Both the position numbers and the translations under genes were made by a program. A model generated the notes under the pieces. It saw only the letters and a program-made list of their open reading frames with translations. It did no database searches and was not told the DNA's origin. Positions 866 to 26,568 of a stretch of DNA of 64,000 bases are shown piece by piece. How positions within the stretch are numbered: position 1 is the first letter of the stretch; each line of letters starts with the position of its first letter. The DNA is from Parcubacteria group bacterium (GTDB taxonomy: Bacteria; Patescibacteriota; Minisyncoccia; Minisyncoccales; UBA10102): positions 73,585 through 137,584 of the forward strand of contig JACQLT010000002.1 in NCBI GenBank assembly GCA_016203945.1, written 5' to 3'.

Positions 866-1993
866 TCAAGCCCCCACGAGATCCAAGGTGAGAGGAGTTG
901 CCTCCTCAATATCTCTTGTGGCCCTCTTCCCCAGCACTCCGTCAAAGTGTTTGGGCAAAAGTCCTGCTCCTGGACGCGCCACCCGAATGTTTTCTAAGGT
1001 AAAAAGCTCTCCTTTTTTGACGGGTTTCTGCACCCATATTGAGGGCCGGAACTCCTTATTCGCCTCTTCAGCAGGAGAAGCAGGTCCATAGTGAACCTGA
1101 CCCATGGCTTTCTCCACCTGCTCTGAAGAAATGCTCAGCTCCGAGAGCACTGCTTCTCGCTCCCCTTTCTCTCCCCTTCTGATGAGCTCTACCATGTACT
1201 TGAACTCTTTTGGTTCTAGAGAGAATCTTGCGTCAGGCCCTCCCAAAGAGCGGTCCAATATAAAATGTTTCTCAAGGACAGAGGCGCCTGCCGCCACCGC
1301 AGCTACTACTGGAATTTCAATGCCGGCATTATTATCCGAAAACCCTCCGATAACCCCAAACCGCTGACTCACATCCGTAATCACCCGCAAGTTCGCATGC
1401 TCCCACGAGGGCTTGTCCGAATATGTCGTGATGCAATGAAGCGCAACAATATCCTGACAGCCGTTGCTCCGCAGGGTGCGTAAGGCTTCATCCACTTCTT
1501 CAAGTGAAGCAAAGCCGATGGATATAATCGCCGGCTTCCCGGTTTTGGCAACTTTTTGCAGTAGCGGAATGTGCACTGCCTCATACGCACCTATTTTGTA
1601 GCACGGAGGTTGAACCTCTTTCTCCAGAAAATCTACTGCGCTTTCAAAAAAGGGCGTGGAGAAAAGAACAATGCCGAGTTCGTCTGCCAGCTTCTTGAGT
1701 TTTGGCTGCCATTCCCAGGGAGTATATGCGGTCTGGTAGAGCTCCCACAAACTTCTGTCAACCCATGCTTCGGGCCGGTCCCCTTCAGCTTTCACCACAA
1801 ACCACTTTTTGCGTGAGTTCAAAGTAATTTCTGGCGTGTAGGTCTGCAGTTTTACCGCGTCAGCTCCAGCTTTCTTTGCCTGCTTTATCAGTTCTACTGC
1901 TTCTTCGTACTTTTGATGATGATTCCCTGACAACTCCGCCACAATAAAACAGGGTTGACCCTCTCCTACCATTTTTTTTCCTATACGTATCAT
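866..1993 (-). CDS. pseI: NeuB-family nonulosonic acid synthase with C-terminal SAF domain, closest to pseudaminic acid synthase PseI
   Basis: FIVAELSGNH and KKAGADAVKLQTYTPEITLNS motifs closely parallel PseI/NeuB; TIM-barrel plus SAF tail. Confidence 0.75.
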   Translation of the reverse strand: MIRIGKKMVGEGQPCFIVAELSGNHHQKYEEAVELIKQAKKAGADAVKLQTYTPEITLNSRKKWFVVKAEGDRPEAWVDRSLWELYQTAYTPWEWQPKLKKLADELGIVLFSTPFFESAVDFLEKEVQPPCYKIGAYEAVHIPLLQKVAKTGKPAIISIGFASLEEVDEALRTLRSNGCQDIVALHCITTYSDKPSWEHANLRVITDVSQRFGVIGGFSDNNAGIEIPVVAAVAAGASVLEKHFILDRSLGGPDARFSLEPKEFKYMVELIRRGEKGEREAVLSELSISSEQVEKAMGQVHYGPASPAEEANKEFRPSIWVQKPVKKGELFTLENIRVARPGAGLLPKHFDGVLGKRATRDIEEATPLTLDLVGA

Positions 1994-10527: not shown

Positions 10528-10556
10528 AGTTTAGCATTTTGTATAAAATTTGTCAA
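10528..10556 (-). promoter_or_regulatory. sigma70-like promoter (TTGACA-17-TAAACT) for the NUDIX gene
   Basis: Reverse strand reads CCTTGACAAATTTTATACAAAATGCTAAACT; same extended -35 (TTGACAAA) recurs at 36806, 37020, 37500. Confidence 0.45.
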
Positions 10557-10561
10557 GGAGA

Positions 10562-11743: not shown

Positions 11744-11756
11744 ATACTAATAAAGC

Positions 11757-14189: not shown

Positions 14190-14908
14190 TGGACGTATAG
14201 TTCCGCCAATAGTTCCGGAGGGAAATCCTTGCCAATGCGAAACATCGCATCCAGGATTTTTTCATCAAGACCAAGCCCGTCAAGCTGGCTGTTTGAGAGG
14301 GGCTTTAAAAAGATGCCTCCCATACTTTTTACTTTCAGTTTTGCGGCGCGTATATCTTTCTTCAGCGACTTTGCGTCATATACTCTCCTGTGGCCGATCC
14401 GCCTGTCTCTCTCGTTGAGCTCATGGAGATGCTTCAGCATACCGGCCATCACTCCTATCCTGCGATGAAGAGATTGGGCGTTGGGACAGATAATAAAAAT
14501 AGTTCCTTTTTTTGCGAGCCAGCGCCGCGACATGCTGAGCAGACGAACCGGATGTTGAACATGCTCAAGGATATTCACGAGCACAATGCTGTTAAATTTC
14601 TCCCGGGGCTTGAACTCTTCAAAAAGCGTGCATATGAAATCGGCATTGCGAAGGCGCAACTTTTTTGCGTCGGCAATGAGCTTTTGAGAGCCGTCTATGG
14701 CAGTGATGTGTTTGAAGTGCTTGGCAAGATTTTCTGTCATTACGCCTTCTGCGCATCCGACTTCCAATATACGATCGTTGCGAATATGTTCTCTTATGAT
14801 CGCAAAGCGGTACTTCTCCAATCTGACTTCAAAACCTTCCCGCATGGAAAAATGCTTTGCAATATCTGCGAGCCGCTTTTTTTCTGCTTCTTTGCCTTGT
14901 GTTTTCAT
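14177..14908 (-). CDS. class I SAM-dependent methyltransferase
   Basis: Motif I ILEVGCAEG. Confidence 0.7.
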   Translation of the reverse strand: MKTQGKEAEKKRLADIAKHFSMREGFEVRLEKYRFAIIREHIRNDRILEVGCAEGVMTENLAKHFKHITAIDGSQKLIADAKKLRLRNADFICTLFEEFKPREKFNSIVLVNILEHVQHPVRLLSMSRRWLAKKGTIFIICPNAQSLHRRIGVMAGMLKHLHELNERDRRIGHRRVYDAKSLKKDIRAAKLKVKSMGGIFLKPLSNSQLDGLGLDEKILDAMFRIGKDFPPELLAELYVQCTA

Positions 14909-15828
14909 GGCTTTATCTGGAAAAACTCAAACTCTTTTTTTAAACCCTCCCTGATCTCAACGGATGGAGCGTATCCGAGTTTCTCTTTTGCCGAGCTGAT
15001 ATCCATCACCAAATCAAACGCCTCTTTTATGCCGGGTTTTTGAATAGGTTCGAGCGATGCTCCCGAAATTTGCAGAAGCATAGTGAGCGCATCCCGTATG
15101 CGAATTCCCTGCCCCGAGCTGATGTTAAACGTACCTCCCAAATTTTTATTGAGGGCGAGTATGGTTGCCTGTACCACGTCATCAATATATGCATAGTCGC
15201 GCAGTTCCGAACCTAAACCATACAAGACGGGTTTCTGTTTTTGCGTAATCGCTTCAATAAACTTGGGTATTGCTTTCACAACCGGCTCTCCGGGCCCATA
15301 TACCTGAGAGTAGCGGAGAATGGTAAGAGGGATTCCCTTCTCGTCAAAAAACACGCTTAAATATTTTTCTGCCGCCGCCTTACTCGCTCCGTAGTATGTA
15401 AGAGAATTGAGAGGATGATCTTCGCGAAGGGGAAGATATTGCGGTTTGCCGTAGACATCAATGGTACTCGCATACACAAATCCTTTCACGATGTCGGGCA
15501 GGCATTCTGCAAGATACAGTGAGGCCAAAACATTGTGTTTTACATACTCTTCTGGCTTCTCATCTGTACTGCGGACAGAAGGCGTACGGCCTGCCAAATG
15601 AAGAACATAGTCAATAGGGCCTATGGCTTTAATGTTTTTACAAGCATCTCTCTTTGAAAGGTCGGCTTTTACATGTCTCACATTTCCTTCGTGGCCTGGG
15701 ATTGCGTCTTTTGACAGCGAAATAATGCTGACTCCTTCTTGTTTTCTCAACGCCTCCACCACGCGTGAGCCAATAAAACCGTTCCCTCCGGTTACCAGAA
15801 TAATTTTTTCAGGCGAGCTGCTATTCAT
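14905..15828 (-). CDS. NAD-dependent sugar-nucleotide epimerase/dehydratase (extended SDR)
   Basis: TGGNGFIGS Rossmann, YGASK catalytic YxxxK. Confidence 0.8.
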   Translation of the reverse strand: MNSSSPEKIILVTGGNGFIGSRVVEALRKQEGVSIISLSKDAIPGHEGNVRHVKADLSKRDACKNIKAIGPIDYVLHLAGRTPSVRSTDEKPEEYVKHNVLASLYLAECLPDIVKGFVYASTIDVYGKPQYLPLREDHPLNSLTYYGASKAAAEKYLSVFFDEKGIPLTILRYSQVYGPGEPVVKAIPKFIEAITQKQKPVLYGLGSELRDYAYIDDVVQATILALNKNLGGTFNISSGQGIRIRDALTMLLQISGASLEPIQKPGIKEAFDLVMDISSAKEKLGYAPSVEIREGLKKEFEFFQIKP

Positions 15829-16894
15829 GAAGCTGTTGTTTTCGTTTTATCAGGTCTTGCCTGCACCGCTCTATTTCTTTTGTGCCAGTAAGCACCGGCT
15901 CCACGTCCATGCCTCGTATCCAAACAAGCCCGTCTGGAAGAGGGTTGAAGATTTTTGAGGGTTCCGGGTACTCTTCTCCGAATGCCAGCCCGAGCATGAT
16001 CTCTGGCATATTGAGACCTGCTTTGGAAAAAAAGAAGTGGGTGGTAAAGAAACGGCCGATATTTATCTCCGTAGGATTTGGCACGCCCGTCTTGTCGTAT
16101 GTAAGGTCAACTGAGAAAATGCCGTGCGGATTTTGGTCAATTGCCTTGATTGCTTTCAGGGCAAGCTCATCAAGCGCTGGATCAGAATACGTCATTCCAC
16201 CACCAGTAATCCCGGTGACTCCGGAAGGAGCCCTGTTCGCAAACTCCCAATAGAGCCTCTCTCTCCCTTGGGCCGCAACAAGTGTGCCCTTATTCCAAAT
16301 TGACATCCATGTAACCGAATGTTCCGTAAGAACTTCGGCCGCAGTGAACCTGCCCCAGCCGTTTCGTGAATGAATCCACGAAAGAGCATCTTCGTATGCT
16401 TTGGCAGGATACGACCCTTCCCCGGCAGCCCCTTTTCTGTTCCTCAGCCAAAGATACGATCCAATGTTTTGAAATGCCTCTTTCAGGTCTTGAGGTTTTT
16501 GAATAAGCACGGTGCGGGGAATAGGCAAGGAAGCTTGCTCCCATAGCTGATAGGAAGCGAATTTATCCAGACATACCTCCACCGTTTTTTTATCGGGAAG
16601 AAATGTTCTCGTGTTTACCTCTTCTCTGTGTTGCGAGAGAAATTCAACCTCTTTGTCGTTTTGCGCATGAATGAATTCAATGTCGTATTCTTTTATGATC
16701 TGGTTCAGTATCGGCAGGTACTCCCTGTCTTCAACCCTTGGAACCAAAAGGCGAATATCGGTCTTCGCTCTCTGAAGCGTGTACTCGTTGCAGTCCACCC
16801 CCACAAGAAACATGGGGCCTTTCATCAGTCGCAAAGAATTAACAAAGTTTGTTGCGGGCGCTCCTCCGGCCCCGCATACCAATATTTTTTTCAT
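15821..16894 (-). CDS. ATP-grasp domain protein
   Basis: CPSase/PurK-like ATP-grasp fold pattern; start probably MKKILVCGAGG (ORF track 15821-16939). Confidence 0.55.
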   Translation of the reverse strand: MKKILVCGAGGAPATNFVNSLRLMKGPMFLVGVDCNEYTLQRAKTDIRLLVPRVEDREYLPILNQIIKEYDIEFIHAQNDKEVEFLSQHREEVNTRTFLPDKKTVEVCLDKFASYQLWEQASLPIPRTVLIQKPQDLKEAFQNIGSYLWLRNRKGAAGEGSYPAKAYEDALSWIHSRNGWGRFTAAEVLTEHSVTWMSIWNKGTLVAAQGRERLYWEFANRAPSGVTGITGGGMTYSDPALDELALKAIKAIDQNPHGIFSVDLTYDKTGVPNPTEINIGRFFTTHFFFSKAGLNMPEIMLGLAFGEEYPEPSKIFNPLPDGLVWIRGMDVEPVLTGTKEIERCRQDLIKRKQQLHE

Positions 16895-17913
16895 GAAGAC
16901 AAAAGTACTTTCTTTCCTTCTTTCATGCTCTGGTCGCACGCTTCCAGCATGCGCACTACTTCGAGCCCCTCGCGCCCCGGCGTCTGGGGCTCCGCGCCAG
17001 AACGGATGCAGTCAATAAAATGCTGGGTCTCAACAGAGAGAGCTTCCGTGGTATCAAGTTTTGGTATGACAATATCCCCAACCCGATACAATGGGTTAAA
17101 AGGCGTGATATTCTGGAGATTCAACGAGATTCCCTTGTCGTACACCTTCACCTTCTCAGATGGCTCCAGGTCGTCGTAGAGAATCATTTTGCGGCTTCCT
17201 CCGATGAGTATTTTTCGTATCTTCAGGGGCGACAGCCAGCTCGCGTGAACATGAGCCACGATGCCAGATTCCATTTCAAGGGTGACGTGGGCCATTTCTT
17301 CTCCGTGCGAGGAGAGATGTCGTGTGCCTTGCGCAAACACCGCCTTGGGGCGAACATCTCCAAAAAGAAAGCGGAGAATGGAAAAGTCGTGGGCTGCAAG
17401 ATCCCACAGTACCGAAGCATCATGCTGAATGAGCCCGAAATTAATGCGCTCTGAATCAAAATAGTAAATATCCCCCAGCTCTTGCATAAGCTCTTTGATT
17501 TTTTTCACCGCTCCCGTATATACAAAGGTGTGATCAATCATCAAAATCAGCCCTTTGCTCTCTGCAAGATCGATCAATTCTTGGCACTGGACAACAGAAG
17601 ATGCCATTGGTTTTTCCAAAAGCACGTGCTTGCCTCGTTCCAGCGCAGTTTTCGCAAGTTCATAATGAGTGGAAAGGGGCGTGGCAATGGCGACCGCCTG
17701 CACCGTGTCATCTTGCAGGATATCTTCGTATGATACGGTAAATTTTGTGGAAGGATATTGCACGGCAAGCTTGCGAAAAACGTCTTTCTTAATATCGCAT
17801 CCATACGCGACTTCGCATCCTTCAAGCTGAGAGAAGTTGCGAAGGAGGTTGGGCCCCCAATATCCAAGCCCGACGACCCCAATTTTGATAATGTGATTTT
17901 GATGGCTCTCCAT
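16891..17913 (-). CDS. Gfo/Idh/MocA family oxidoreductase (WbpB-like sugar dehydrogenase)
   Basis: IGVVGLGYWGPNLLRN Rossmann, EKP motif. Confidence 0.8.
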   Translation of the reverse strand: MESHQNHIIKIGVVGLGYWGPNLLRNFSQLEGCEVAYGCDIKKDVFRKLAVQYPSTKFTVSYEDILQDDTVQAVAIATPLSTHYELAKTALERGKHVLLEKPMASSVVQCQELIDLAESKGLILMIDHTFVYTGAVKKIKELMQELGDIYYFDSERINFGLIQHDASVLWDLAAHDFSILRFLFGDVRPKAVFAQGTRHLSSHGEEMAHVTLEMESGIVAHVHASWLSPLKIRKILIGGSRKMILYDDLEPSEKVKVYDKGISLNLQNITPFNPLYRVGDIVIPKLDTTEALSVETQHFIDCIRSGAEPQTPGREGLEVVRMLEACDQSMKEGKKVLLSS

Positions 17914-17921
17914 AGTAAAAA

Positions 17922-19574
17922 TTAGAGAAGGGGCGGCAAACCGCCTGTGACCATGATCTTCTGGCCGGTCGTGAAAGAAGCATAGTCAGAAGCCAAAAAA
18001 GCAACTGCTCGTGCAATATCCAAGGGTTCCGCGTATCTTCCCAAAGGAGACTCCTCCGCAATCTTTTTGCGAAACCCATCCGGGATATGCGCAATCAAGT
18101 CAGTTTCAACCATACTGGGCACCACCATGTTAACGAGAATATTTTGTCTGGCATATTCTACGGCCAGAGCCCTGGTGAGTCCTACGAGGCCACTCTTTGC
18201 GATGACATATTTGCTATGCCGCGAAGGAGGGTCATCGGTTGCCACGGTGCCAATGGTAATAATGCGACCTCCTCCTGCTTTGATCATACCGGGTATCACT
18301 TCCTGGGAGCAGTGAACGCTTCCTTTCACCACCACGTCCAGATCTCTTTGAATATCTTCCCATTGCGTAGAAAGAAAATCTTTTGGAAGGAAATCTCTTA
18401 CCGCATTGTTCACGAGCACGTCAACTGTGCCAAAAAATTCGTTGATTTTTCCAACCATAGCCCGTACCTGCTCGCGGTGGGTAATGTCCGCCTGAAAGCA
18501 AAGGGCTTTGCCGTCCCCTTTGCGGATGTCTTCTACGAGGTTTTCTGCGTCCTCCTTTCCCCGCAGATAGTTGATAGCTACCTTGGCTCCCAGCGCGGCA
18601 AAGAGCATGGCGCATGTGGCGCCAATTCCGCTGTTGGCGCCGGTAATAAGCACTACCTTGTCCTTGAGACCCATATCATGTGCTTTCTCCTGTATATCGG
18701 CAAAGGAAGCAAGGCGTGCACGCGGGCTCCTCACCCCGGCGGTAATAAATCCTCGTATGGCAGATCCGACGGCAAACTCTTTTTTTATACTGTGCGTTGC
18801 CCCCGACACGAACACCACCTCTTCTTTGAACTCGTAAAGAGCGTCGAGAACAATAGGGTTCTCTATCGTTGCCTCAAATCCGTACAGCGTCGCAAATGTC
18901 CCCGGCATAACCATTCCCACGGAAGGAGAACACATGAGCAGGGCCAATAACTCGAACGGAGAAAAAGCGGGGCTGAACTTTTCGTCCGGCAATCCTTCTT
19001 GCAAAAGAAACCGCGCACCTGCCATGGCTCCTTGAGATACGGCAAAGCGCATCGTGTTTGCCATGCCTTCCTGAATTTCCTGCATGGCGTATGTGCGTTC
19101 TTGAATGTTGTCTCTCAGCAAACTCTCTTCTGGCGCATCGCTTGCGATGGGAATGCGTGCCTCAGAAGGGACCATCTCTCCCTTTCCTTCAATCAATGAC
19201 TCCTGGGATTTGCGGTTGAGTATGCGCCACGAAAACCCGCCTTGCTCTCGCACATGCGCTTCAAGCGTTAAAGCATCGTTTAAAAAAATCGGCTTAAGGA
19301 ATTTTGCCCGGAGCGAGCGCAATCTCCATGTTCTGCGGGGAAATTGAACCGCCAATAAAAAGCAAAGGGGGAGAAATCCATGCACAATACGCTCGCGGTA
19401 CGCGGAGGTTGCCGCAACATCTTCATGGAGATGCAATGGATTGGTATCGCCCGAGAGAAACGCAAAGCGTCTCACCATGGATTCGGTAATCTGAAAGGAG
19501 ATGTGCTGCGGCTGATTGTGTGCTTGTGACATATGCTTAGAAGGCAAGCTTTTTCCGACGAGAAAGCCACTCAT
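17922..19574 (-). CDS. fusion protein: N-terminal MaoC-like (hot-dog) dehydratase plus C-terminal FabG-like short-chain ketoreductase
   Basis: GDTNPLHLHEDVAATSAYRERIVHGF (MaoC); LITGANSGIGAT, NNAV, YVIAKSG (SDR). Confidence 0.7.
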   Translation of the reverse strand: MSGFLVGKSLPSKHMSQAHNQPQHISFQITESMVRRFAFLSGDTNPLHLHEDVAATSAYRERIVHGFLPLCFLLAVQFPRRTWRLRSLRAKFLKPIFLNDALTLEAHVREQGGFSWRILNRKSQESLIEGKGEMVPSEARIPIASDAPEESLLRDNIQERTYAMQEIQEGMANTMRFAVSQGAMAGARFLLQEGLPDEKFSPAFSPFELLALLMCSPSVGMVMPGTFATLYGFEATIENPIVLDALYEFKEEVVFVSGATHSIKKEFAVGSAIRGFITAGVRSPRARLASFADIQEKAHDMGLKDKVVLITGANSGIGATCAMLFAALGAKVAINYLRGKEDAENLVEDIRKGDGKALCFQADITHREQVRAMVGKINEFFGTVDVLVNNAVRDFLPKDFLSTQWEDIQRDLDVVVKGSVHCSQEVIPGMIKAGGGRIITIGTVATDDPPSRHSKYVIAKSGLVGLTRALAVEYARQNILVNMVVPSMVETDLIAHIPDGFRKKIAEESPLGRYAEPLDIARAVAFLASDYASFTTGQKIMVTGGLPPLL

Positions 19575-20106
19575 CTCTGGTTATTCCATACCACACCTGA
19601 TCGACAAATGCTCCTTTATACAGCAACCGCTCCTTAAACGTACCCTGGTACGAAAGACCCATCTTTTTGTAGTTGAATACGGAAGCGACATTGGGAGCGT
19701 AGGCGCCCGTGGAAATAGAGCGGATTCGAAGCTTCAGAAACGCGAAATCAAACACAAGAGCAATGGCTTCCTGCGCAGCTCCCGTGCCCCAGTACTTCTT
19801 GTTCCCGATAAGATATCCGTAGTTCGCGTATTTGTGCATCGGATGAATGTCATACAGCGTAATGACGCCGATGTGCTTTTTTGTTTTCTTGTCAAATATC
19901 CCCCAAAGAAACTTGGTCTTCTGGTCAAAGCCCCTCACATACGCTCTCTGCGTTGCCAGAGTATGTTTCTTGAAACGCGCCTCAAGAAACTCATTCACCC
20001 CGGGGTCCTTCAGCCAAGAGACATATTCTTGGGTCACATCTTCTGGGAAAAGCGGCTTGAGCTGCGTCTGCCTGCCTTCAAACACGAGGGAACTATTCCT
20101 TGCCAT
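19537..20106 (-). CDS. GNAT family N-acyltransferase
   Basis: GNAT motif A region GYLIGNKKYWGTGAAQEAIALVFDFAF. Confidence 0.7.
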   Translation of the reverse strand: MARNSSLVFEGRQTQLKPLFPEDVTQEYVSWLKDPGVNEFLEARFKKHTLATQRAYVRGFDQKTKFLWGIFDKKTKKHIGVITLYDIHPMHKYANYGYLIGNKKYWGTGAAQEAIALVFDFAFLKLRIRSISTGAYAPNVASVFNYKKMGLSYQGTFKERLLYKGAFVDQVWYGITRDEWLSRRKKLAF

Positions 20107-20341
20107 GGGATTTCATTTTCTTTGTTATCGCTTCTTGGATTGCTGCGAAAGAGACGAGATCTGGAATTTCCCGATCGCCAAAACGCATGCCAAACTCTTC
20201 CTGGAGAGCCATGACAAGACGGAGATGCTGAAGCGAATCCCACTGGGCAATGGTATAAATGGATGCGTTGTCTTTGATGAGAGTGCGATCCACTTCCAAA
20301 GAATCCGCCATAATGCTTTTAATGCGTTCTTCCGTGCTCAT
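20093..20341 (-). CDS. acyl carrier protein
   Basis: About 80 aa with phosphopantetheine-attachment DSL motif (AQWDSLQHLRLVMALQEEFG); start taken at MSTEERIKSIM (ATGA overlap with FkbH gene). Confidence 0.7.
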   Translation of the reverse strand: MSTEERIKSIMADSLEVDRTLIKDNASIYTIAQWDSLQHLRLVMALQEEFGMRFGDREIPDLVSFAAIQEAITKKMKSHGKE

Positions 20342-22122
20342 ACGGCCTGCTGCGGAGTCATATGTATTGTCTGGAACCACGGAGGAAGGAAAGGAAGAGC
20401 GCCTTCTATATTCAATGCGTACACGTTCTCAGCTTGCTTTGTAAAACCTAGGTGCGGATAGAGATCTTTTACCACGGCATTCTTTGCGGTAGGAATATAT
20501 TCTCCAGTTATCAATGTTACTCCTTGTTCTTGCAGATACAACGCTACCTTAGAAATAACCGCTTGTTCAATCGTACGGCCAATGACCCGACAGCTCTGAA
20601 GAAACATATCAATACTCGCCTTCTTGTCTTGAATCTTTACAATGAGGAGGCCGACGACCCCGTTATCCCCGAATTTATCCTGTACAGACCAGGAAAAAAC
20701 CTGCCATTTGGGATCTTCCATGCGTCTCGTAATGTCTGCTTCAGAATACTTTTTTGTCGTAAGGTTGAACTGATTTGTCTTCTGGGTCATCTGGGCCAGG
20801 CGCGGAATCTGCATTTTCTCATTCACAAAAATCGTGAGACGCATGTCCAGGGTCCTCCAGAAATCTTCCAATGAAGCCGACTCCTGCTTTAGAGAGGCCC
20901 GTTTGCCCTGATCTTGATATATCCGCACCTTTTTCAGATCTTCTTGAGAATAGATATTCTTCTCAAATACGTGTAATTCCTGAAGGAACGCTGCGTATTC
21001 GCCAGCCCCCTCCGGAAGTTCCGGGGTATACACTTCGGGAACCCGTTCTCGCATTAATTCCCGCTCAACGGGGCTGTCGTCAAGGAATACCATGCTATCT
21101 AAACCGATATCGAGCTCTTGGGCTATTTCTTGGATTGATTGAGGTTTTAGGCCCCAGCCAATCTTTGTAATAACAAAATCCTCTAGGGCAAGAGGCATAT
21201 CGTCTTTCCTTTTTAGGAATGCTTCTTTGACGTCTTCAGGATTGTTTTTTGAGGCCATTGCAAGGACAATGCCTTTTGAAGAAAGATGTTTCAATTGAAG
21301 CTGAAAATCGTAATACGCGCGCCCGGGACCCGTTGGCCCAACGATGACGCGATCTGGCCCCTCCTCTCCCACAACCCCCCCCCACAGCGTATTATCAAGA
21401 TCAAGCACAATGCACTTTTTAGTTTTTCCGTAGGCGGCAAACATAACACGGGCAATCTCTTTTCCAATCTCTACCAAACCCTCTGAAGAAAAGGGTAAAG
21501 AAGAATGGTAGTACATATTCCAGTCGTAGAAACGCTTCTTGCCGATTCTTGAGGCGATGTCTTGAACATCAAGCATATATACCTCTTTATGCCGCGAGGC
21601 CGCAGCGGCAATGCTTCTGTTGAGATGGACTAACGCTTCTTTCTGGGAATAATCCCTCTGCGCATCCAGAATGCCATAATACCATCTGCCAGGATGATCG
21701 AATGTCGTAAGAATGATGCGGGGCTGTGATGTTCTGCGGGCTGCTGCAACAAGCTGCTCCATGCGATGAACAACTTCCTGCGTCTTCTTTTCCAGTTCCA
21801 AGGGAGTTATGTTGTGAAAGTCGTAGATGAGTTCGGGAAAAAATTCTTGGAGAGTGGCAAAGAGAAGAACGACATCATACGCGCCTTTGCCATACTCTCC
21901 TGCCGGGTCGAGAAGTTCCTGCTCAAATATGTTATAGCCGAAAAATCGGATGGTTGGCGCGAATCCTTCTGAAACAAGCTCGACCCGCACCACGGGCTCA
22001 ATGGGTTCCAGCGTGCACGAACGGAATACGGCAAGCGAAAGAGGCGTCCCTCGGGGTGTCTCGCCAATCTGTCTTGCTAGTTCCAAATAATCCTTGTACG
22101 TACTCTTCATTGTTTGGTGCAT
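20338..22122 (-). CDS. FkbH-like HAD-superfamily (subfamily IIIC) protein with C-terminal acyltransferase-like domain
   Basis: HAD motif LDLDNTLWGG, FkbH-domain architecture (about 590 aa). Confidence 0.7.
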   Translation of the reverse strand: MHQTMKSTYKDYLELARQIGETPRGTPLSLAVFRSCTLEPIEPVVRVELVSEGFAPTIRFFGYNIFEQELLDPAGEYGKGAYDVVLLFATLQEFFPELIYDFHNITPLELEKKTQEVVHRMEQLVAAARRTSQPRIILTTFDHPGRWYYGILDAQRDYSQKEALVHLNRSIAAAASRHKEVYMLDVQDIASRIGKKRFYDWNMYYHSSLPFSSEGLVEIGKEIARVMFAAYGKTKKCIVLDLDNTLWGGVVGEEGPDRVIVGPTGPGRAYYDFQLQLKHLSSKGIVLAMASKNNPEDVKEAFLKRKDDMPLALEDFVITKIGWGLKPQSIQEIAQELDIGLDSMVFLDDSPVERELMRERVPEVYTPELPEGAGEYAAFLQELHVFEKNIYSQEDLKKVRIYQDQGKRASLKQESASLEDFWRTLDMRLTIFVNEKMQIPRLAQMTQKTNQFNLTTKKYSEADITRRMEDPKWQVFSWSVQDKFGDNGVVGLLIVKIQDKKASIDMFLQSCRVIGRTIEQAVISKVALYLQEQGVTLITGEYIPTAKNAVVKDLYPHLGFTKQAENVYALNIEGALPFLPPWFQTIHMTPQQAV

Positions 22123-22457
22123 ATGACGAATGCCAAAGCATAATCTTTTACGTGAGCCATGCTTATCTGACAGGCAGGATGGCGGGCCTGCTTTTGCGGC
22201 AAGAATGCAATGGAGGGTTTTCCCGATGCGGATGTTCTGATCTCAACCTGCAGATAGGATACGGGCTTTTCGATCGCTTTGAATGTTGCTTCTTTTGCCG
22301 CAAAGCGCGCGGCAAAATGTTGGAGCGGAAATGCCTTGCTCTTGCAGAAGCGGATCTCTTTTGCGCTAAATACGCGCTTCATAAATTCTTGCTTCTTCAT
22401 TGCCTTGGCAAAATCAGGAAGAAATACGATATCAACGCCGACTCCTAATACAGACAT
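22107..22457 (-). CDS. acpS: holo-ACP synthase (4'-phosphopantetheinyl transferase, AcpS-type)
   Basis: MSVLGVGVDIV N-terminus and ASGKPSI motif typical of AcpS. Confidence 0.7.
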   Translation of the reverse strand: MSVLGVGVDIVFLPDFAKAMKKQEFMKRVFSAKEIRFCKSKAFPLQHFAARFAAKEATFKAIEKPVSYLQVEIRTSASGKPSIAFLPQKQARHPACQISMAHVKDYALAFVICTKQ

Positions 22458-22467: not shown

Positions 22468-23607
22468 CTATCTTCGATATCGCGCAATGATCTCGCGCAC
22501 TGCCCTGACAACAGCGCGTATTTCTCCCGATATCATCTTGGGAAACAACGGCAGGGTTATCGCCCGCTCATAATACTGTTCAGCAATGGGGAAATCGCCT
22601 TTCTTGTATCCGAATGTTTTTTTATAAAACGGATGGAGGTGAACCGGAATATAGTGCACCTGCACGCCAAGGCCTTTGTTGCGCAACGCTTCAAATATTT
22701 TTCTTCTTCCGGTTTTTAATAATTCCAAGCGCAGTCGGATGGGATACAAATGATACGCAGACCTGGCATACGCTTTCTCGACAGGAAGAATTATCTCTGA
22801 AATATTACGAAACGCTTGGTTATACCGTCGCACGATCTCTCTTCTCGTCTTTACGAACCTATCCAGTTTCTGGAACTGACTGAGGCCCAGGGCGCACTGT
22901 ATGTCAGAAATGCGGTAATTATATCCCGGCCTCTCTATCTCGTAATACCATGCTCCCCTCTCTGGTTTTCTGATAAGTCCGTGGTTTCGAAACGCCTTTA
23001 GAGTTCTGTAGAAATCCTTTCTGTCGGTAACAACCATTCCTCCTTCTCCCGTAGTAATGGCTTTTACCGGATGAAAGCTGAACATGGTCATATCGGAGAA
23101 TGATCCTACTTTCTTGCCTTTGTATTCTGAACCCAAGGCATGGGCGGCATCTTCAATAACCAGAAGATTGTGCTCTCTCGCGATCTTTTTTATGGTGTCC
23201 AGTTCTGCTGGATGACCTGCAAAATCAACCGGAGCCAACGCCTTGGTCCTTTTGGTAATTTTCTTTTTGATTGCTTCTGGGCTGATATTCAACGTATTCT
23301 CTTGAATATCGGCAAAGACGGGCTTTCCTCCGCAATACACAATGGCGTTCGCGGTCGCGGCAAACGTCATGGGAGTGGTGATAACTTCGTCTCCCGGCCC
23401 GATGCGAGCCGCAGCGTATGCCGCGTGCAAAGCTGCGGTTCCCGAAGAAAACGCCACCGCGTACTTTACTCCGCAATACCCGGCTATTGCCTGCTCAAAT
23501 TGCTCGACTCTTGGCCCCTGGGTAATCCAGTCGCTCTTTAATATACGCACAACGGAAGCAATATCGCTCCCGTCTATTTGCTGGTGGCCGTAGGGAATAG
23601 TTTTCAT
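22468..23607 (-). CDS. pseC: UDP-4-amino-4,6-dideoxy-N-acetyl-beta-L-altrosamine transaminase
   Basis: Strong identity to PseC blocks: AHALGSEYKGKKVGSF, FSFHPVKAITTGEGGMVVTD. Confidence 0.85.
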   Translation of the reverse strand: MKTIPYGHQQIDGSDIASVVRILKSDWITQGPRVEQFEQAIAGYCGVKYAVAFSSGTAALHAAYAAARIGPGDEVITTPMTFAATANAIVYCGGKPVFADIQENTLNISPEAIKKKITKRTKALAPVDFAGHPAELDTIKKIAREHNLLVIEDAAHALGSEYKGKKVGSFSDMTMFSFHPVKAITTGEGGMVVTDRKDFYRTLKAFRNHGLIRKPERGAWYYEIERPGYNYRISDIQCALGLSQFQKLDRFVKTRREIVRRYNQAFRNISEIILPVEKAYARSAYHLYPIRLRLELLKTGRRKIFEALRNKGLGVQVHYIPVHLHPFYKKTFGYKKGDFPIAEQYYERAITLPLFPKMISGEIRAVVRAVREIIARYRR

Positions 23608-24587
23608 ATCTCATGCTTCATTGTATCAAGCATCTTTTTCATTTCTTCCTTTGTGATGGCGCGCTCATTCCGGTCGCTCCGATATGAAAAACTGGCGGGG
23701 ACGGGCTTCCCTTCCTTTGAGTTTTCTTCTTTCCAGAAAGAAAATTCGGGAGCAATCACATACATATCATCAAACTCTCTTGTATGTCTTGCCTCTTCTT
23801 CGCAAATGAGCGTTTCGTGAAGCTTCTCTCCGGGGCGAATGCCGACGATTTTTACTTTGGCTTCGGGCGCCACCGTCTGAGCCAGATCAAGAACCCGCAT
23901 GCTCGGAACTTTTGGCACGAACACTTCGCCTCCATGCATGCGCTCAATGCATGTGATGACGAAACGAATGCCTTCTTCGAGCGAGATCCAAAATCGCGTC
24001 ATGCGCTCGTCGGTTACGGTAACTTCCCCTGTTTTGCGCTGTTCCAGGAATAGAGGAATGACAGATCCTGAAGAGGCGATCACGTTGCCGTAGCGAGCCG
24101 AGCTCAGACGCACGTTCTTATGGCTGCCGTATGCGTTTCCCTGAACAAAGAGTTTTTCCGCAACCATCTTTGTGGCCCCATACAAATTTGCGGGCTGCAC
24201 CGATTTATCGGTGCCGATGTTCATCACCAAGGGCACCCGCTGATCAATGGCGGCGTCAATCACATTGACGGCTCCTTCAATGTTGGTGCGTACCGCCTCA
24301 ATCGGATTGTATTCGCACACGGGGATATGCTTTAAGGCTGCGGCATGCACCACCACGTCAACGTCTGCCATAGAACGCTCCAGGCGACTCTTGTCTCGTA
24401 CGTCTCCGAGAAAAAAGCGCAGGCGCCTATCAGAAAACCTGCGCCCCATTTCAACGAGTTGCAGCTCGTTGTTGTCAAAAATACGCACGACCGCAGGGTT
24501 GTGTTCCTTGAGAATAACCTCGGCAAACTCCTGCCCAAAAGAACCCGCCCCTCCCGTTATCAAAATTGTTTTGCCTTGAAAAATCAT
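23604..24587 (-). CDS. pseB: UDP-N-acetylglucosamine 4,6-dehydratase (inverting)
   Basis: KTILITGGAGSFGQEF, RMTRFWISLEEGIRFV, GIRPGEKLHE blocks match FlaA1/PseB. Confidence 0.85.
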   Translation of the reverse strand: MIFQGKTILITGGAGSFGQEFAEVILKEHNPAVVRIFDNNELQLVEMGRRFSDRRLRFFLGDVRDKSRLERSMADVDVVVHAAALKHIPVCEYNPIEAVRTNIEGAVNVIDAAIDQRVPLVMNIGTDKSVQPANLYGATKMVAEKLFVQGNAYGSHKNVRLSSARYGNVIASSGSVIPLFLEQRKTGEVTVTDERMTRFWISLEEGIRFVITCIERMHGGEVFVPKVPSMRVLDLAQTVAPEAKVKIVGIRPGEKLHETLICEEEARHTREFDDMYVIAPEFSFWKEENSKEGKPVPASFSYRSDRNERAITKEEMKKMLDTMKHEI

Positions 24588-24627: not shown

Positions 24628-26523
24628 TCAACGAGGTGTCATCCAGCGCTCGTACCACATTTGAAACATGAGCAGGAACCAGAGCTTGTGCGCATCCACT
24701 CCCCTGCCTTCTCTATGGCGCTTGAGCGCGCGCTGAACCGCCCGCTGGTCGAATAACCCGTGCAGCAAAAGACGCTCTGGTGCCAGATACTCCTGAAGAA
24801 AACGGGAAAAATCCTGCCTAAGCCAGGCATGGATGGGAATGCCAAATCCCTGCTTGGGGCGCTCGATGAGTTCCTCTGGGATGTAGCGCGCAAGAATCTT
24901 CTTGAGTAAATATTTGCTTTGTCCCTTTTTAAACTTGATGGAACTTGGAACCCGAGCAACGTACTCGGCTATCTTTTGATCAAGAAATGGCTCTCTCCCT
25001 TCCAGGCCGACTGCCATGGTCGCCCGATCTGCTTTTACCAAGATATCGTCTGGCAGGTACACGCGAAAATCCGCGACTTGCATCTTGGCGAACGCATCAA
25101 GAGAACCAAGCTCATTAAACCCGTAGAAACTGCTGTTGGCATCAAATGGAAATCGAAGAAGCTGCAAAAGCTGCTGGCGCGTCCAGAAGGAGTTGGCGGT
25201 GCGGAATATGTCTTCAAATGAGCGTTCGCGCAGAAGATTTCTTAGTTTATACACCTTATTTTTTAAGTTCGTATGTTTTTTTAAAGAAGGAGAAAAAAGG
25301 GCTAGTCCAACAGCGAGCGAACGAGAGAGCGCTGGCGGCAACGCCCCAAATTTTCTCTGGTACCACTCCAAAGCCCCGTATTTGGGGTATCCGCCAAAAA
25401 GCTCGTCTCCCCCATCTCCGGAAAGAACTACTTTTACCTGTTCTCTCGCAAACTTGGAAACCAGATGTGTCGGGATTGCCGAGCTGTCTCCAAACGGCTC
25501 GTCATACATGTCGGGAAGCTGGGGAATGACGTCGGCTGCCATTTCTTTGGTGCAGTAGAGCTCGTGGTGTTCGGTCCCAAAATATTGAGCTATCTTCTTT
25601 GCGAATGGCGCCTCGTCGTATCCTTTTTCATGGAACCCAATTGTGAACGTCTTTATGGGAGCTCCCGCCTGTTTCTGCAAGAGAGCGGCTATCGTGGAAG
25701 AATCTAGGCCGCCGCTCAAAAATATCCCGACTGGCACGTCTGCCACCATGCGGTAGCGAAACGATTCAAGAAGAATGCCTTCCAATTCTTCTATGATTTC
25801 CTCTTCGGATTTCTGAAAAGGTCCAAGCTGGTAAAAGGAGGCGATGTCCCAGTATCGCACTTCCTTTGAGTTGCCGTGCGTATCAATCTCAAGATAGGAG
25901 CCCGGCTGCAGCTTGAAGGTGTTCTGAAATATAGTATGGGGCGCCGGAATGTAGCCGAGCTGCAGAAACAAAGCAAGCGCTTCGTAATTGATCTCTTTCT
26001 TGAACTCGGGGTGTTTGTGAAGCGCCTTGAGTTCTGAAGCAAAAAGCAAGAGGCCGTTTTTTTGGTAATAGTACAAAGGTTTTACGCCCGCCCGGTCCCT
26101 GCACAAGATGAGTTTGCCGGAGTTGGCATCCCAAATGGCAAAAGCGAACATGCCCCGGAACCTTGCGACACTTTCCATGCCCCATTCTTCATACGCCTCA
26201 AGAATGACTTCTGTGTCCGAGGCGCTCTTAAATTTCCTGCCTCGTTTCTCAAGCTCGCTGCGAACTTCTTGAAAATTATAGATCTCTCCATTGAACGCGA
26301 TCCAAAGAGTTTTCGTTTTGTTTGCCATGGGCTGATGCCCCAGCGAAGACAAGTCAATGATGGCAAGACGCGTATGACCCAGACCGATGCCGTGTTCTTG
26401 AGAAACAAAAACGCCCCGGTCGTCAGGACCCCGATGGCTGAGGCATTCTGCCATGCGCGAGAGCACGCTCTCCTCAAGAAAAGAGCGCTGCCGAGCGTCA
26501 AAAATACCGACAATGCCGCACAT
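24628..26523 (-). CDS. asparagine synthetase B-family glutamine amidotransferase
   Basis: MCGIVGIF Ntn-amidotransferase start, PP-loop SGGLDSS. Confidence 0.85.
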   Translation of the reverse strand: MCGIVGIFDARQRSFLEESVLSRMAECLSHRGPDDRGVFVSQEHGIGLGHTRLAIIDLSSLGHQPMANKTKTLWIAFNGEIYNFQEVRSELEKRGRKFKSASDTEVILEAYEEWGMESVARFRGMFAFAIWDANSGKLILCRDRAGVKPLYYYQKNGLLLFASELKALHKHPEFKKEINYEALALFLQLGYIPAPHTIFQNTFKLQPGSYLEIDTHGNSKEVRYWDIASFYQLGPFQKSEEEIIEELEGILLESFRYRMVADVPVGIFLSGGLDSSTIAALLQKQAGAPIKTFTIGFHEKGYDEAPFAKKIAQYFGTEHHELYCTKEMAADVIPQLPDMYDEPFGDSSAIPTHLVSKFAREQVKVVLSGDGGDELFGGYPKYGALEWYQRKFGALPPALSRSLAVGLALFSPSLKKHTNLKNKVYKLRNLLRERSFEDIFRTANSFWTRQQLLQLLRFPFDANSSFYGFNELGSLDAFAKMQVADFRVYLPDDILVKADRATMAVGLEGREPFLDQKIAEYVARVPSSIKFKKGQSKYLLKKILARYIPEELIERPKQGFGIPIHAWLRQDFSRFLQEYLAPERLLLHGLFDQRAVQRALKRHREGRGVDAHKLWFLLMFQMWYERWMTPR

Positions 26524-26568
26524 AGAGCTAAGTGGACACAGACACAGAATTTCTATATCATATAATCG

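What the first reader, a model, noticed from the sequence alone, without database searches (positions are those of the whole stretch)
17922..22457. FkbH-like loader + ACP + AcpS + MaoC-dehydratase/ketoreductase fusion + GNAT embedded inside the pse locus
Five contiguous genes encode a carrier-protein-based small-acyl biosynthesis module: AcpS (22107-22457), FkbH-like protein (20338-22122), ACP with DSL motif (20093-20341), a GNAT (19537-20106) and a MaoC-hot-dog/FabG-like fusion (17922-19574). FkbH-family enzymes are known to load a glyceryl unit from 1,3-bisphosphoglycerate onto a dedicated ACP. Combined with ketoreductase/dehydratase activity and methyltransferases nearby, this suggests an ACP-tethered glyceroyl/hydroxyacyl group, possibly O-methylated, that a GNAT transfers onto the amino group of the nonulosonic acid precursor. 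(Di-O-methylglyceroyl and hydroxybutanoyl N-acyl variants of Pse/Leg are known from other bacteria.) A dedicated AcpS inside a sugar locus is unusual.
Basis: partly seen in the sequence, partly recalled or inferred. Interest (0 to 1): 0.8.

Follow-up and report, generated by a model that had tools for sequence, protein, structure and literature searches.

The report
Carrier-protein lactyl/glyceryl module in pseudaminic-acid locus
A Parcubacteria (candidate-phyla-radiation) genome carries, inside its pseudaminic-acid sugar operon, a private carrier-protein system that most likely turns a glycolysis intermediate into a three-carbon hydroxy-acyl group (probably lactyl) and attaches it to the sugar's amino group, which gives a testable genetic route for rare N-lactyl/N-glyceroyl sialic-acid-like sugars.

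Summary
The five genes are real, contiguous, co-oriented and tightly packed. They are AcpS, a long-form FkbH-like HAD-IIIC protein, an ACP, a GNAT and a double-hot-dog MaoC dehydratase fused to a FabG-like reductase. They sit directly downstream of pseB-pseC in a 26-kb glycan operon of a Parcubacteria MAG. All expected catalytic residues are present and conserved across homologues.

The proposed products fit less well. The dehydratase-reductase fusion accompanies FkbH in 11 of 11 loci with enough flank. This combination matches the FkbH + DH-KR route that converts glyceryl-ACP via pyruvoyl-ACP to lactyl-ACP in FR901464 and lankacidin biosynthesis. No ketosynthase, acyltransferase, FkbK or FkbI is encoded.

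My best reading is N-lactyl, possibly later O-methylated, at N7 of pseudaminic acid, with the GNAT standing in for PseH. N-lactyl pseudaminic acid exists chemically, but its genetics are unknown.

The fusion family is rare (about 100 clusters at 50% identity), spans several phyla and recurs in nonulosonic-acid loci. None of the chemistry was tested. Verdict: new variant of a known kind, moderate interest.

The parts
22107..22457 (-). AcpS-type 4'-phosphopantetheinyl transferase (116 aa from Met19 of the ORF). Presumed to convert the adjacent apo-ACP to holo-ACP.
   Evidence: PF01648 E=1.4e-15. TIGR00556 scores 77.7 bits against a cut-off of 45.4, and TIGR00516 scores 65.1 against 59.8. The gene overlaps the FkbH start by 16 nt. 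AcpS is also adjacent to the module in L001, L002, L005, L011 and L048.
20338..22122 (-). Long-form FkbH-like HAD-IIIC protein (594 aa) with an N-terminal FkbH_N domain, a HAD phosphatase core and a C-terminal transferase domain. Presumed glyceryl loader that uses 1,3-bisphosphoglycerate.
   Evidence: TIGR01686 scores 289.8 bits against a cut-off of 146.7. PDB 3slr matches at E=2.7e-50. D241-L-D243-N-T245, S291, K292, K326, D348 and D349 are at least 95% conserved, and C511 (in the S-C-R motif) is present in 119 of 119 homologues.
20093..20341 (-). Dedicated acyl carrier protein (82 aa) with its attachment serine in the W-D-S-L-Q-H motif.
   Evidence: PP-binding scores 21.0 bits against a cut-off of 20.8, and ACP NCBIfam models reach E~1e-11. 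The WDS motif is invariant in 22 ACPs from related loci. The gene has a 4-nt ATGA overlap with the FkbH stop codon.
19537..20106 (-). GNAT N-acyltransferase (189 aa, Acetyltransf_3 type). It is the only N-acyltransferase-family protein found in the 26-kb operon. Proposed to transfer the ACP-borne acyl group to the PseC product, taking the PseH position.
   Evidence: Acetyltransf_3 E=6.4e-19. The PseH model gives only a weak hit (26.8 bits against a cut-off of 93.1). The ACP-GNAT-fusion order is kept in L001, L002, L049 and L050 at 66-87% identity. A 29%-identical GNAT follows the fusion in L035.
17922..19574 (-). Dehydratase-ketoreductase fusion. Residues ~20-281 form a double hot-dog MaoC-type dehydratase and residues ~300-550 a FabG-like SDR. 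The likely true start is Met15 at 19532. Proposed to convert glyceryl-ACP to pyruvoyl-ACP and then to lactyl-ACP.
22468..23607 (-). PseC, the UDP-4-amino-4,6-dideoxy-N-acetyl-beta-L-altrosamine transaminase. It makes the amine that the GNAT is proposed to acylate.
   Evidence: TIGR03588 scores 498.9 bits against a cut-off of 423.5.
23604..24587 (-). PseB, the inverting UDP-GlcNAc 4,6-dehydratase. First step of the Pse pathway.
   Evidence: TIGR03589 scores 444.1 bits against a cut-off of 407.75.
866..1993 (-). PseI-type pseudaminic acid synthase at the distal end of the same gene string. Context for the module.
   Evidence: TIGR03586 scores 373.9 bits against a cut-off of 340.25.

Best explanation
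The five genes form a self-contained module that builds a three-carbon acyl group on a carrier protein and uses it to decorate pseudaminic acid.

Proposed sequence of steps:
1. AcpS attaches phosphopantetheine to the dedicated ACP.
2. The FkbH-like enzyme takes 1,3-bisphosphoglycerate, forms a glyceryl-S-Cys511 intermediate, removes the phosphate with its HAD domain, and passes D-glyceryl to the ACP.
3. The double-hot-dog MaoC domain of the fusion removes the 3-hydroxyl. This gives enol-pyruvoyl-ACP, which tautomerises to pyruvoyl-ACP.
4. The fused FabG-like reductase reduces the 2-keto group with NAD(P)H to give lactyl-ACP (2-hydroxypropanoyl-ACP).
5. The GNAT, sitting where PseH would be, transfers this acyl group to the 4-amino group of UDP-4-amino-4,6-dideoxy-beta-L-AltNAc made by PseB and PseC.
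6. After the later steps (PseI, cytidylyltransferase) the product is a pseudaminic acid carrying N7-lactyl. One of the locus methyltransferases may O-methylate it.

Shown here: gene content and order, domain identities, conservation of catalytic residues, and the tight FkbH/fusion genomic linkage.

Inferred, not shown: every substrate, the order of the dehydration and reduction steps, the stereochemistry, the use of acyl-ACP rather than acetyl-CoA by the GNAT, and the acceptor amine.
For: **The loader looks competent.** It scores 290 bits on the FkbH domain model, with a complete HAD motif set and an invariant cysteine (119 of 119 homologues).

**The carrier and its activator look competent.** The ACP serine motif is invariant in 22 of 22 aligned ACPs. 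AcpS scores above its model cut-offs.

**The fusion looks active.**
- The hydratase-2 motif F-x-x-L-S-G-D-x-N-P-L-H is present, and D43 and H48 are invariant in 87 of 87 homologues.
- The reductase has the (S/T)443-Y456-K460 triad and the glycine motif.
- The structure model is confident (pLDDT 92). It shows a double hot dog plus a FabG-like fold.

**FkbH and the fusion are genomically linked.** Of 41 other loci with a full-length fusion, all 11 with at least 6 kb on both sides have an FkbH gene within 5.2 kb, and 23 of 41 have one overall. In 17 of those 23 it lies immediately upstream of the fusion.

**No competing chemistry is encoded.** The window has no FabH or malonyl transacylase, and no FkbK- or FkbI-type dehydrogenase appeared in any scanned ORF.

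**There is a published precedent.** DH-KR bifunctional proteins convert glyceryl-S-ACP to lactyl-S-ACP in FR901464 and lankacidin biosynthesis (PMC4765723). Pyruvoyl- or lactoyl-ACP is derived from 1,3-bisphosphoglycerate (PMC6162330).

**The predicted product class exists.** N-lactyl pseudaminic acid was found in the Psychrobacter marincola capsule (PMC7281560), and N-lactyl on amino sugars is described as rare (PMC9912281).

**The context fits.** The module lies next to PseB/PseC here and in L001 and L002. It lies in other nonulosonic-acid loci in L004, L005, L010, L032, L035 and L036. The GNAT is the only N-acyltransferase-family protein detected in the operon.
Against: - No biochemistry exists for any long-form FkbH-like protein from a glycan locus. 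The only solved relative (3slr) is a structural-genomics entry without a known function.
- FabG-like reductases normally act on 3-keto groups, not 2-keto groups.
- The window protein lacks the Arg315 of the family's TGASRGIG motif, so cofactor preference is unclear.
- The GNAT could simply be a divergent acetyl-CoA-dependent PseH.
- The one known N-lactyl Pse carries the lactyl group on N5, not N7, and its genes are unknown.
- In L048 the order is AcpS-GNAT-fusion, with no FkbH or ACP between them on that short contig.
- A second set of loci combines the same FkbH/ACP/fusion trio with FabH and an acyltransferase (L003, L009, L012, L024). The trio's product can therefore be used in other ways.
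Confidence: 0.5

Rival explanations
1. The ACP carries glyceryl (2,3-dihydroxypropanoyl), possibly O-methylated, and the GNAT transfers it to give an N-glyceroyl or di-O-methylglyceroyl pseudaminic acid. The fusion would have some accessory or unrelated role.
For: - FkbH chemistry gives glyceryl-ACP directly (PMC7489565).
- N-glyceroyl Pse is known in Tannerella forsythia.
- 5-N-(2,3-di-O-methylglyceroyl) Pse is known in C. jejuni 11168, whose flagellar glycosylation locus contains the FkbH-domain gene cj1302.
- Three methyltransferases lie in the operon.
Against: - It leaves the fusion without a function. The fusion is conserved and has intact catalytic residues.
- The fusion is linked to FkbH in 11 of 11 loci with enough flank.
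- Most FkbH-like genes do without it. There are more than 7,800 FkbH hits against about 100-150 for the fusion. The fusion therefore looks like a specific add-on that changes the product.
Confidence: 0.2
2. The GNAT is an ordinary acetyl-CoA-dependent PseH that happens to lie within the module. The ACP-borne acyl group goes elsewhere. Possible destinations are the second amino sugar made by the downstream DegT aminotransferase and SDR, a hydroxyl group, or another acceptor. A different enzyme, such as the unannotated 393-aa protein or the ATP-grasp protein, would carry out that transfer.
For: - The Pse pathway needs a 4-N-acyltransferase, and this GNAT is the only candidate.
- It gives a weak PseH-model hit at E=4.6e-6.
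- The operon encodes a second DegT aminotransferase (12442-13677), a second NeuB-like synthase (4468-5517) and several proteins of unknown role.
- In other loci the module is accompanied by different acyltransferase types: LbH, Antibiotic_NAT and larger GNAT proteins.
Against: - The ACP-GNAT-fusion order, with overlapping or abutting reading frames, is conserved down to 66% identity, including in a marine metagenome.
- A distant GNAT (29% identity) again abuts the fusion in L035.
- No other N-acyltransferase family was detected in the operon.
Confidence: 0.2
3. The module makes a four-carbon or oxidised unit. This would be either 3-hydroxybutanoyl by FabG-type reduction, or hydroxymalonyl/methoxymalonyl as in the FkbGHIJK pathway.
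For: - The SDR domain is most similar to FabG and acetoacetyl reductases.
- N-3-hydroxybutanoyl Pse and Leg are common (my knowledge).
- FkbH starts the methoxymalonyl-ACP route.
Against: - The window has no FabH-type ketosynthase or malonyl transacylase homologue, and no scanned ORF matched a ketosynthase or thiolase family.
- No FkbK-type (3-hydroxyacyl-CoA dehydrogenase) or FkbI-type (acyl-CoA dehydrogenase) protein appeared in any scanned ORF.
- An FkbH loader is unnecessary for making hydroxybutanoyl.
Confidence: 0.05

Closest known systems
Lactyl-ACP starter-unit pathway of FR901464 and lankacidin polyketide biosynthesis (FkbH-type loader + ACP + bifunctional DH-KR)
   Same: The parts list and the proposed chemistry are the same. 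1,3-bisphosphoglycerate is loaded as glyceryl-S-ACP, dehydrated to pyruvoyl-ACP and reduced to lactyl-ACP. The dehydratase and reductase are physically fused (PMC4765723; PMC6162330).
   Different: - The reductase is a FabG-like classical SDR.
- All parts are free-standing proteins.
- There is no PKS or NRPS. The product is proposed to go to a GNAT and an amino sugar rather than to a ketosynthase or condensation domain.
- The loader is the roughly 600-aa long form with an extra N-terminal FkbH_N domain.
Canonical pseudaminic acid pathway (PseB, PseC, PseH, PseG, PseI, PseF) of Campylobacter and Helicobacter
   Same: PseB, PseC and PseI score above the NCBIfam equivalog cut-offs. A GNAT follows the aminotransferase step, as PseH does.
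   Different: - The GNAT does not reach the PseH cut-off (26.8 bits against 93.1).
- No PseG was found.
- The cytidylyltransferase matches only generic KdsB-like models.
- An ACP system is inserted between pseC and the GNAT.
FkbH-domain gene cj1302 in the C. jejuni NCTC 11168 flagellin glycosylation locus, and its di-O-methylglyceroyl pseudaminic acid
   Same: An FkbH-domain gene lies inside a pseudaminic-acid glycosylation locus of an organism whose Pse carries a C3 glycerate-derived N-acyl group.
   Different: - The link between cj1302 and the glyceroyl group has not been shown in the papers I could read.
- The acyl group is on N5 and is thought to need prior deacetylation by Cj1295.
- I did not examine the C. 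jejuni locus, so I cannot say whether it has a MaoC-SDR fusion.
Methoxymalonyl-ACP pathway (FkbG, H, I, J, K) and tetronate glyceryl-ACP pathways
   Same: [quoted passage not shown]
   Different: The window has no FkbK or FkbI dehydrogenases and no FabH-like condensing enzyme. Related 'layout B' loci (L003, L009, L012, L024) do carry FabH and an acyltransferase and may be closer to tetronate-like chemistry.
Butirosin AHBA side-chain system (BtrI ACP, BtrH acyltransferase) - from my own knowledge, not checked here
   Same: A small hydroxy-acyl group is assembled on a dedicated ACP and then transferred to an amino group of an amino sugar.
   Different: The acyl unit is different (derived from glutamate), the tailoring enzymes are different and the transferase family is different. 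There is no FkbH.

Membership tests
FkbH family (TIGR01686; glyceryl transferase/phosphatase) | Match to the FkbH domain model above its curated cut-off | tested here: met
   289.8 bits against a cut-off of 146.65, covering residues 234-563 and profile positions 2-322 of 323.
FkbH family (TIGR01686; glyceryl transferase/phosphatase) | HAD catalytic motifs: DxDxT, S/T, K and DD | tested here: met
   D241-L-D243-N-T245, S291/K292, K326 and D348-D349 are each conserved in at least 95% of 119 homologues.
FkbH family (TIGR01686; glyceryl transferase/phosphatase) | Conserved C-terminal cysteine for the acyl-S-enzyme intermediate (its role is from my knowledge of OzmB and FkbH work) | tested here: met
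   C511, in the S-C-R motif, is present in 119 of 119 aligned homologues. The other two cysteines are variable.
FkbH family (TIGR01686; glyceryl transferase/phosphatase) | Uses 1,3-bisphosphoglycerate and loads glyceryl onto its ACP | not testable with these tools
   This needs an enzyme assay and ACP mass spectrometry.
Type II acyl carrier protein | PP-binding fold with a phosphopantetheine-attachment serine in the D-S-L context at the start of helix II | tested here: met
   PF00550 scores 21.0 bits against a cut-off of 20.8. W-D-S-L is invariant in 22 of 22 ACPs from related loci. NCBIfam housekeeping ACP equivalogs were not reached (43 bits against 71), so this is a specialised ACP.
AcpS-type phosphopantetheinyl transferase | Match to the ACPS / pantethn_trn models above their cut-offs, with a size of about 120 aa | tested here: met
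   PF01648 scores 57.7 against 25, TIGR00556 77.7 against 45.35, and TIGR00516 65.1 against 59.8. The protein is 116 aa.
Glyceryl-to-lactyl DH-KR system (FR901464 / lankacidin type) | FkbH loader, ACP and a fused dehydratase-ketoreductase encoded together | tested here: met
   Shown by the gene order in the window. FkbH accompanies the fusion in 11 of 11 loci with enough flank.
Glyceryl-to-lactyl DH-KR system (FR901464 / lankacidin type) | Catalytic residues of both halves are intact | tested here: met
   D43 and H48 of the hydratase-2 motif are invariant. (T/S)443, Y456 and K460 are conserved, with Y456 in 86 of 87 homologues.
Glyceryl-to-lactyl DH-KR system (FR901464 / lankacidin type) | Dehydratase homologous to the PKS-type DH domain of those enzymes | tested here: not met
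   [not shown]
Glyceryl-to-lactyl DH-KR system (FR901464 / lankacidin type) | Converts glyceryl-ACP to lactyl-ACP | not testable with these tools
   This needs in vitro reconstitution.
Pseudaminic acid biosynthesis locus | PseB, PseC and PseI equivalogs present | tested here: met
   PseB scores 444.1 against 407.75, PseC 498.9 against 423.5, and PseI 373.9 against 340.25.
Pseudaminic acid biosynthesis locus | PseH, PseG and PseF equivalogs present | tested here: not met
   The GNAT scores 26.8 against 93.1 on the PseH model. No ORF matched PseG. The cytidylyltransferase hits only KdsB-like models below their cut-offs. Functional substitutes are plausible but unproven.
Methoxymalonyl-ACP pathway (FkbGHIJK) | FkbK-type and FkbI-type dehydrogenases next to FkbH and the ACP | tested here: not met
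   No 3-hydroxyacyl-CoA dehydrogenase or acyl-CoA dehydrogenase family hit appeared in any operon ORF.

The most novel reading that the evidence does not exclude
The FkbH-ACP-(MaoC dehydratase/FabG reductase) trio would be a previously unrecognised pathway, spread across several phyla, that makes lactyl (or O-methyl-lactyl) groups for surface glycans directly from the glycolytic intermediate 1,3-bisphosphoglycerate. It would be the first genetic basis for N-lactyl amino sugars and nonulosonic acids. In this Parcubacteria cell, which probably has no fatty-acid synthesis, the ACP and AcpS pair would exist solely to decorate a sialic-acid-like sugar.
Probability: 0.4. Interest if true: 0.65.

Novelty: new variant of a known kind. 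Interest (0 to 1): 0.55.

Why it matters
**An acknowledged gap.** How bacteria put non-acetyl N-acyl groups such as glyceroyl and lactyl on pseudaminic and legionaminic acids is not known. The Tannerella forsythia authors call the genetic basis of the N-glyceroyl group 'a major challenge' (PMC5378307). The only report of N-lactyl Pse gives no genes (PMC7281560).

**What this locus offers.** It gives a compact five-gene hypothesis that can be tested in E. coli with simple mass shifts. It also suggests a rule of thumb for predicting glycan chemistry from sequence. FkbH with an ACP alone would give glyceroyl. FkbH with an ACP and the MaoC-SDR fusion would give lactyl.

**Wider relevance.** It shows that a candidate-phyla-radiation bacterium with a reduced genome invests in an elaborate sialic-acid-like surface sugar. 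These N-acyl groups determine antigenicity and recognition by phages, so the rule would help in reading glycan loci from uncultured bacteria.

Tried and rejected
1. **Search for named, cultured organisms with the module.** I wanted especially Psychrobacter marincola, which makes N-lactyl Pse.
   - The first alignment (A1) had no stretch conserved enough to search with.
   - The narrower one (A2) found only 6 genome loci, all MAGs, and 36 metagenome loci.
   - The search pattern was narrow (YR[RQE]xVVHGM), so absence from any genome proves nothing.
2. **Plasmid collection.** FkbH-like genes occur on 206 plasmids and megaplasmids. No full-length MaoC-SDR fusion was found, only generic SDR hits. 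I could not pull out the lankacidin plasmid enzymes for a direct comparison.
3. **GNAT against solved structures.** The best hits were RimL/SpeG-like acetyltransferases. No PseH structure appeared among the hits, so this neither supports nor excludes a PseH-like role.
4. **GNAT homologue search.** It returned only 5 close relatives, too few for a family-wide context test.
5. **Shewanella sfmABCDE flagellin-modification cluster.** I read the paper as a possible analogue. The cluster has a different gene content with no FkbH or ACP, so I dropped it.
6. **Hydroxybutanoyl and methoxymalonyl routes.** I considered both and rejected them because the required enzymes are absent.
7. **Flagellin glycosylation as the target.** The adjacent plus-strand genes are Wzy_C (O-antigen-ligase-like) plus TPR proteins, not Maf or FlmG. 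The acceptor of the glycan remains unknown.
8. **The 393-aa protein (10562-11743).** It had no Pfam, NCBIfam or PDB match.

Full report
**1. What is there**

The region 17922-22457 lies in a long string of minus-strand genes running from about 26523 down to 866.

- **AcpS (22107-22457).** It scores above the cut-offs of the PPTase and acpS models.
- **FkbH-like protein (20338-22122, 594 aa).** TIGR01686 FkbH domain scores 289.8 bits against a cut-off of 146.7. It also hits HAD-IIIC and FkbH_N.
- **ACP (20093-20341, 82 aa).**
- **GNAT (19537-20106).** It is of the Acetyltransf_3 type.
- **Fusion (17922-19574, 550 aa).** It has a MaoC hot-dog region and a FabG-like SDR.

The reading frames overlap or abut. 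The fusion most likely starts at Met15 (19532). Relatives start at that position, the first 17 residues are disordered in the model, and this start lies 4 nt after the GNAT stop codon.

Immediately upstream are PseC and PseB, and before them an AsnB-type amidotransferase. All of PseB, PseC and the distal PseI (866-1993) exceed their NCBIfam equivalog cut-offs.

The rest of the operon holds the following:
- two GFO/IDH/MocA oxidoreductases,
- an ATP-grasp protein,
- an SDR epimerase/dehydratase,
- three methyltransferases,
- a HAD phosphatase,
- a second DegT aminotransferase,
- a GT2 glycosyltransferase,
- a NUDIX hydrolase,
- a PAPS-reductase-like protein,
- a GSA-aminomutase-like aminotransferase,
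- a cytidylyltransferase,
- a second NeuB-like synthase,
- a kinase-like protein,
- an EEP-family protein.

No PseG, PseH or PseF equivalog is present, so 'pse locus' is true only in part.

Exact-sequence look-up of the window's ClpB and UvrA places it on a 248.6-kb contig of a 'Parcubacteria group bacterium' MAG.

**2. Are the enzymes likely to be active?**

*FkbH.* I aligned the FkbH-like protein with 118 homologues. The HAD motifs D241-x-D243-x-T245, S291/K292, K326 and D348-D349 are at least 95% conserved. Cys511, in an S-C-R motif, is present in all 119 sequences, while the other two cysteines vary.

*ACP.* Its serine sits in W-D-S-L-Q-H, and the WDS motif is invariant in 22 ACPs from related loci.

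*Fusion.* The hydratase-2 signature F-x-x-L-S-G-D-x-N-P-L-H is complete in the window protein. D43, H48, H65 and G66 are invariant in 87 homologues. The reductase half keeps the glycine motif, N389, Thr/Ser443, Y456 (86 of 87) and K460.

**3. Evidence from related sequences**

*Family sizes.* FkbH-like proteins are very common, with more than 7,800 hits at E<=1e-20. The fusion is rare. A word-indexed search found about 150 proteins. An exhaustive HMMER scan of 1.84 billion cluster representatives with the double-hot-dog half found only 99 with E<=1e-10. Most of these are 530-575 aa long, which means they are fusions.

*Loci collected.* I gathered 50 related loci and annotated them by tblastn with the window's proteins.

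*Linkage result.* Of 41 loci with a full-length fusion, 11 have at least 6 kb on both sides, and all 11 carry an FkbH gene within 5.2 kb. Overall 23 of 41 show FkbH, and most of the rest are short contigs. The dehydratase-reductase therefore belongs functionally with FkbH and its ACP.

*Two layouts.* 
- **Layout A**, as in the window, is (AcpS)-FkbH-ACP-[acyltransferase]-fusion. It recurs in nonulosonic-acid loci.
  - Pse-type: L001, L002.
  - Leg-type with PglD-like, NeuB and 2-epimerase genes: L004, L010.
  - Others with NeuB/PseI-like synthases: L005, L032, L035, L036.
- **Layout B** is fusion-Antibiotic_NAT-x-ACP-FabH-acyltransferase-FkbH-UbiA. It is seen in a Nitrospira MAG, a Pirellulaceae MAG and metagenome contigs (L003, L009, L012, L024). 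It probably uses the same unit differently.

*The GNAT.* The ACP-GNAT-fusion arrangement is kept in relatives down to 66% identity, including a TARA ocean contig (L049, L050). A 29%-identical Acetyltransf_3 GNAT directly follows the fusion in L035. Other layout-A loci have a different N-acyltransferase type nearby: LbH, PglD-like, or a larger GNAT protein together with a polysaccharide deacetylase.

**4. Mechanism**

*Established knowledge.* FkbH enzymes load D-glyceryl from 1,3-bisphosphoglycerate onto a dedicated ACP (PMC7489565).

[quoted passage not shown] *Why the chemistry fits.* Glyceryl-ACP is a 3-hydroxyacyl thioester. Elimination of the 3-hydroxyl gives the enol of pyruvoyl-ACP, and a reductase then has a keto group to reduce. 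Without the dehydration step, a reductive SDR has no substrate on glyceryl-ACP.

*What is missing.* The window contains no FabH or malonyl transacylase homologue. None of the scanned ORFs is an FkbK- or FkbI-type dehydrogenase. Chain extension (hydroxybutanoyl) and the methoxymalonyl route are therefore not encoded.

*Prediction.* I predict lactyl-ACP, transferred by the GNAT to the amine made by PseC. This would give N7-lactyl pseudaminic acid after the PseI and cytidylyltransferase steps.

*What is inference.* The acyl-ACP use by the GNAT, the acceptor and the stereochemistry are inferred from gene order only. Methyltransferase genes directly flank the fusion in several related loci (L003, L005, L010, L024, L039-L041). 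The window has three in the operon. O-methylation of the lactyl hydroxyl or of the sugar is possible but untested.

**5. Comparison with what is known**

- N-lactyl groups on amino sugars are described as rare. They are reported on Rha4N, Fuc3N and Pse (PMC9912281).
- The Pse example is Pse5(R-Lac)7Ac from the Psychrobacter marincola capsule, reported as the first of its kind and without genetics (PMC7281560).
- N-glyceroyl Pse is known in Tannerella forsythia, where the genetic basis is called a major challenge (PMC5378307).
- C. jejuni 11168 makes 5-N-(2,3-di-O-methylglyceroyl) Pse (PMC3068675). Its glycosylation locus has the FkbH-domain gene cj1302 (PMC7099621).
- A full-text search for FkbH together with pseudaminic acid returned only that single passing mention. 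I found no paper that links FkbH, an ACP and a DH-KR to a glycan.

The window's system works like the FR901464/lankacidin lactyl-ACP pathway. I do not file it as a member of that family. Its dehydratase is of a different hot-dog lineage, the parts are free-standing, and the output goes to an amino-sugar N-acyltransferase. It is also not a canonical Pse cluster, because PseH, PseG and PseF equivalogs are missing.

**6. The AcpS remark**

A private AcpS is not unique to this locus. It sits next to the module in L001, L002, L005, L011 and L048. In a Parcubacteria genome it makes sense. From my own knowledge, these bacteria usually lack fatty-acid synthesis, so there may be no housekeeping ACP or AcpS to borrow. 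I could not check the rest of the genome.

**7. Verdict**

The general mechanism, an ACP-borne C3 acyl unit from an FkbH loader used to N-acylate the Pse precursor, is well supported by sequence, structure prediction and conserved gene linkage; I give it about 0.7.

I give the full lactyl-to-N7 model about 0.5.

Nothing here is experimentally shown. The finding is a new variant of a known kind of system. It is of moderate interest because it turns an open question in bacterial glycobiology into a simple five-gene experiment.

Noticed in passing
window 26453-28924 (+) and 28921-31179 (+): Two tandem large proteins (823 and 752 aa), divergently transcribed from the sugar operon. Each has a Wzy_C (O-antigen-ligase-like) membrane domain followed by TPR repeats. 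A homologue (55% identity) sits in the same position in L001. They could be the oligosaccharyl or protein O-glycosyl transferases that use the modified sugar. They are not Maf or FlmG flagellin transferases.
   Followed up: partly
window 866-17913 (-): No PseG or PseF equivalog was found in the operon. A NUDIX hydrolase (10065-10475), a HAD phosphatase (13548-14189) and an EEP-family phosphatase/nuclease (1999-2784, next to PseI) might together replace the UDP-sugar hydrolase step. In L002 the NUDIX gene directly follows the fusion.
   Followed up: no
window 4468-9145 (-): A second NeuB-like synthase is present. It scores best on the NeuB model but below its cut-off. With it are a cytidylyltransferase, a GFO/IDH/MocA oxidoreductase, a GSA-aminomutase-like aminotransferase and a PAPS-reductase-like protein. 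This suggests a second or further-modified ulosonic acid. The PAPS-reductase-like gene is again next to AcpS-GNAT-fusion in L048, together with a Lyase_1 protein.
   Followed up: partly
window 24628-26523 (-): A full-length glutamine-dependent AsnB-type amidotransferase heads the operon. Its best hit is the XrtA/PEP-CTERM-associated amidotransferase model, below cut-off. The same gene precedes pseB in L001, and an AsnB homologue lies near the module in L032 and L036. It may amidate a carboxyl group of the glycan.
   Followed up: no
L003, L009, L012, L024, L029, L033: A second, conserved layout of the same trio was seen in a Nitrospira MAG, a Pirellulaceae MAG and metagenome contigs: fusion - Antibiotic_NAT-family protein - small ORF - ACP - FabH-like KSIII - (acyltransferase) - FkbH - UbiA prenyltransferase - methyltransferases. 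It looks like a different, possibly lipid-linked or tetronate-like, use of glyceryl- or lactyl-ACP.
   Followed up: partly
window 10562-11743 (-): A 393-aa protein inside the operon has no Pfam, NCBIfam or PDB sequence match.
   Followed up: partly
window 31304-34732 (-) and 38028-40082 (+): A 1142-aa protein has only a peptidoglycan-binding domain hit. A 684-aa protein has three lamin-tail (LTD) domains. Both are likely surface proteins of this Parcubacteria cell.
   Followed up: no
window 47259-47345 (+): tRNA-Leu (CAG) is the only RNA gene detected in the window. It overlaps the listed GTG start of the RNase J ORF (47265-49043), whose true start must lie further downstream.
   Followed up: no
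L032 and L036, about 5700-8000: In these loci a 401-aa GNAT-domain protein and a polysaccharide deacetylase lie just upstream of FkbH and the fusion. This hints at a deacetylate-then-reacylate route to an N5 substituent, like the one proposed for C. jejuni Cj1295.
   Followed up: no
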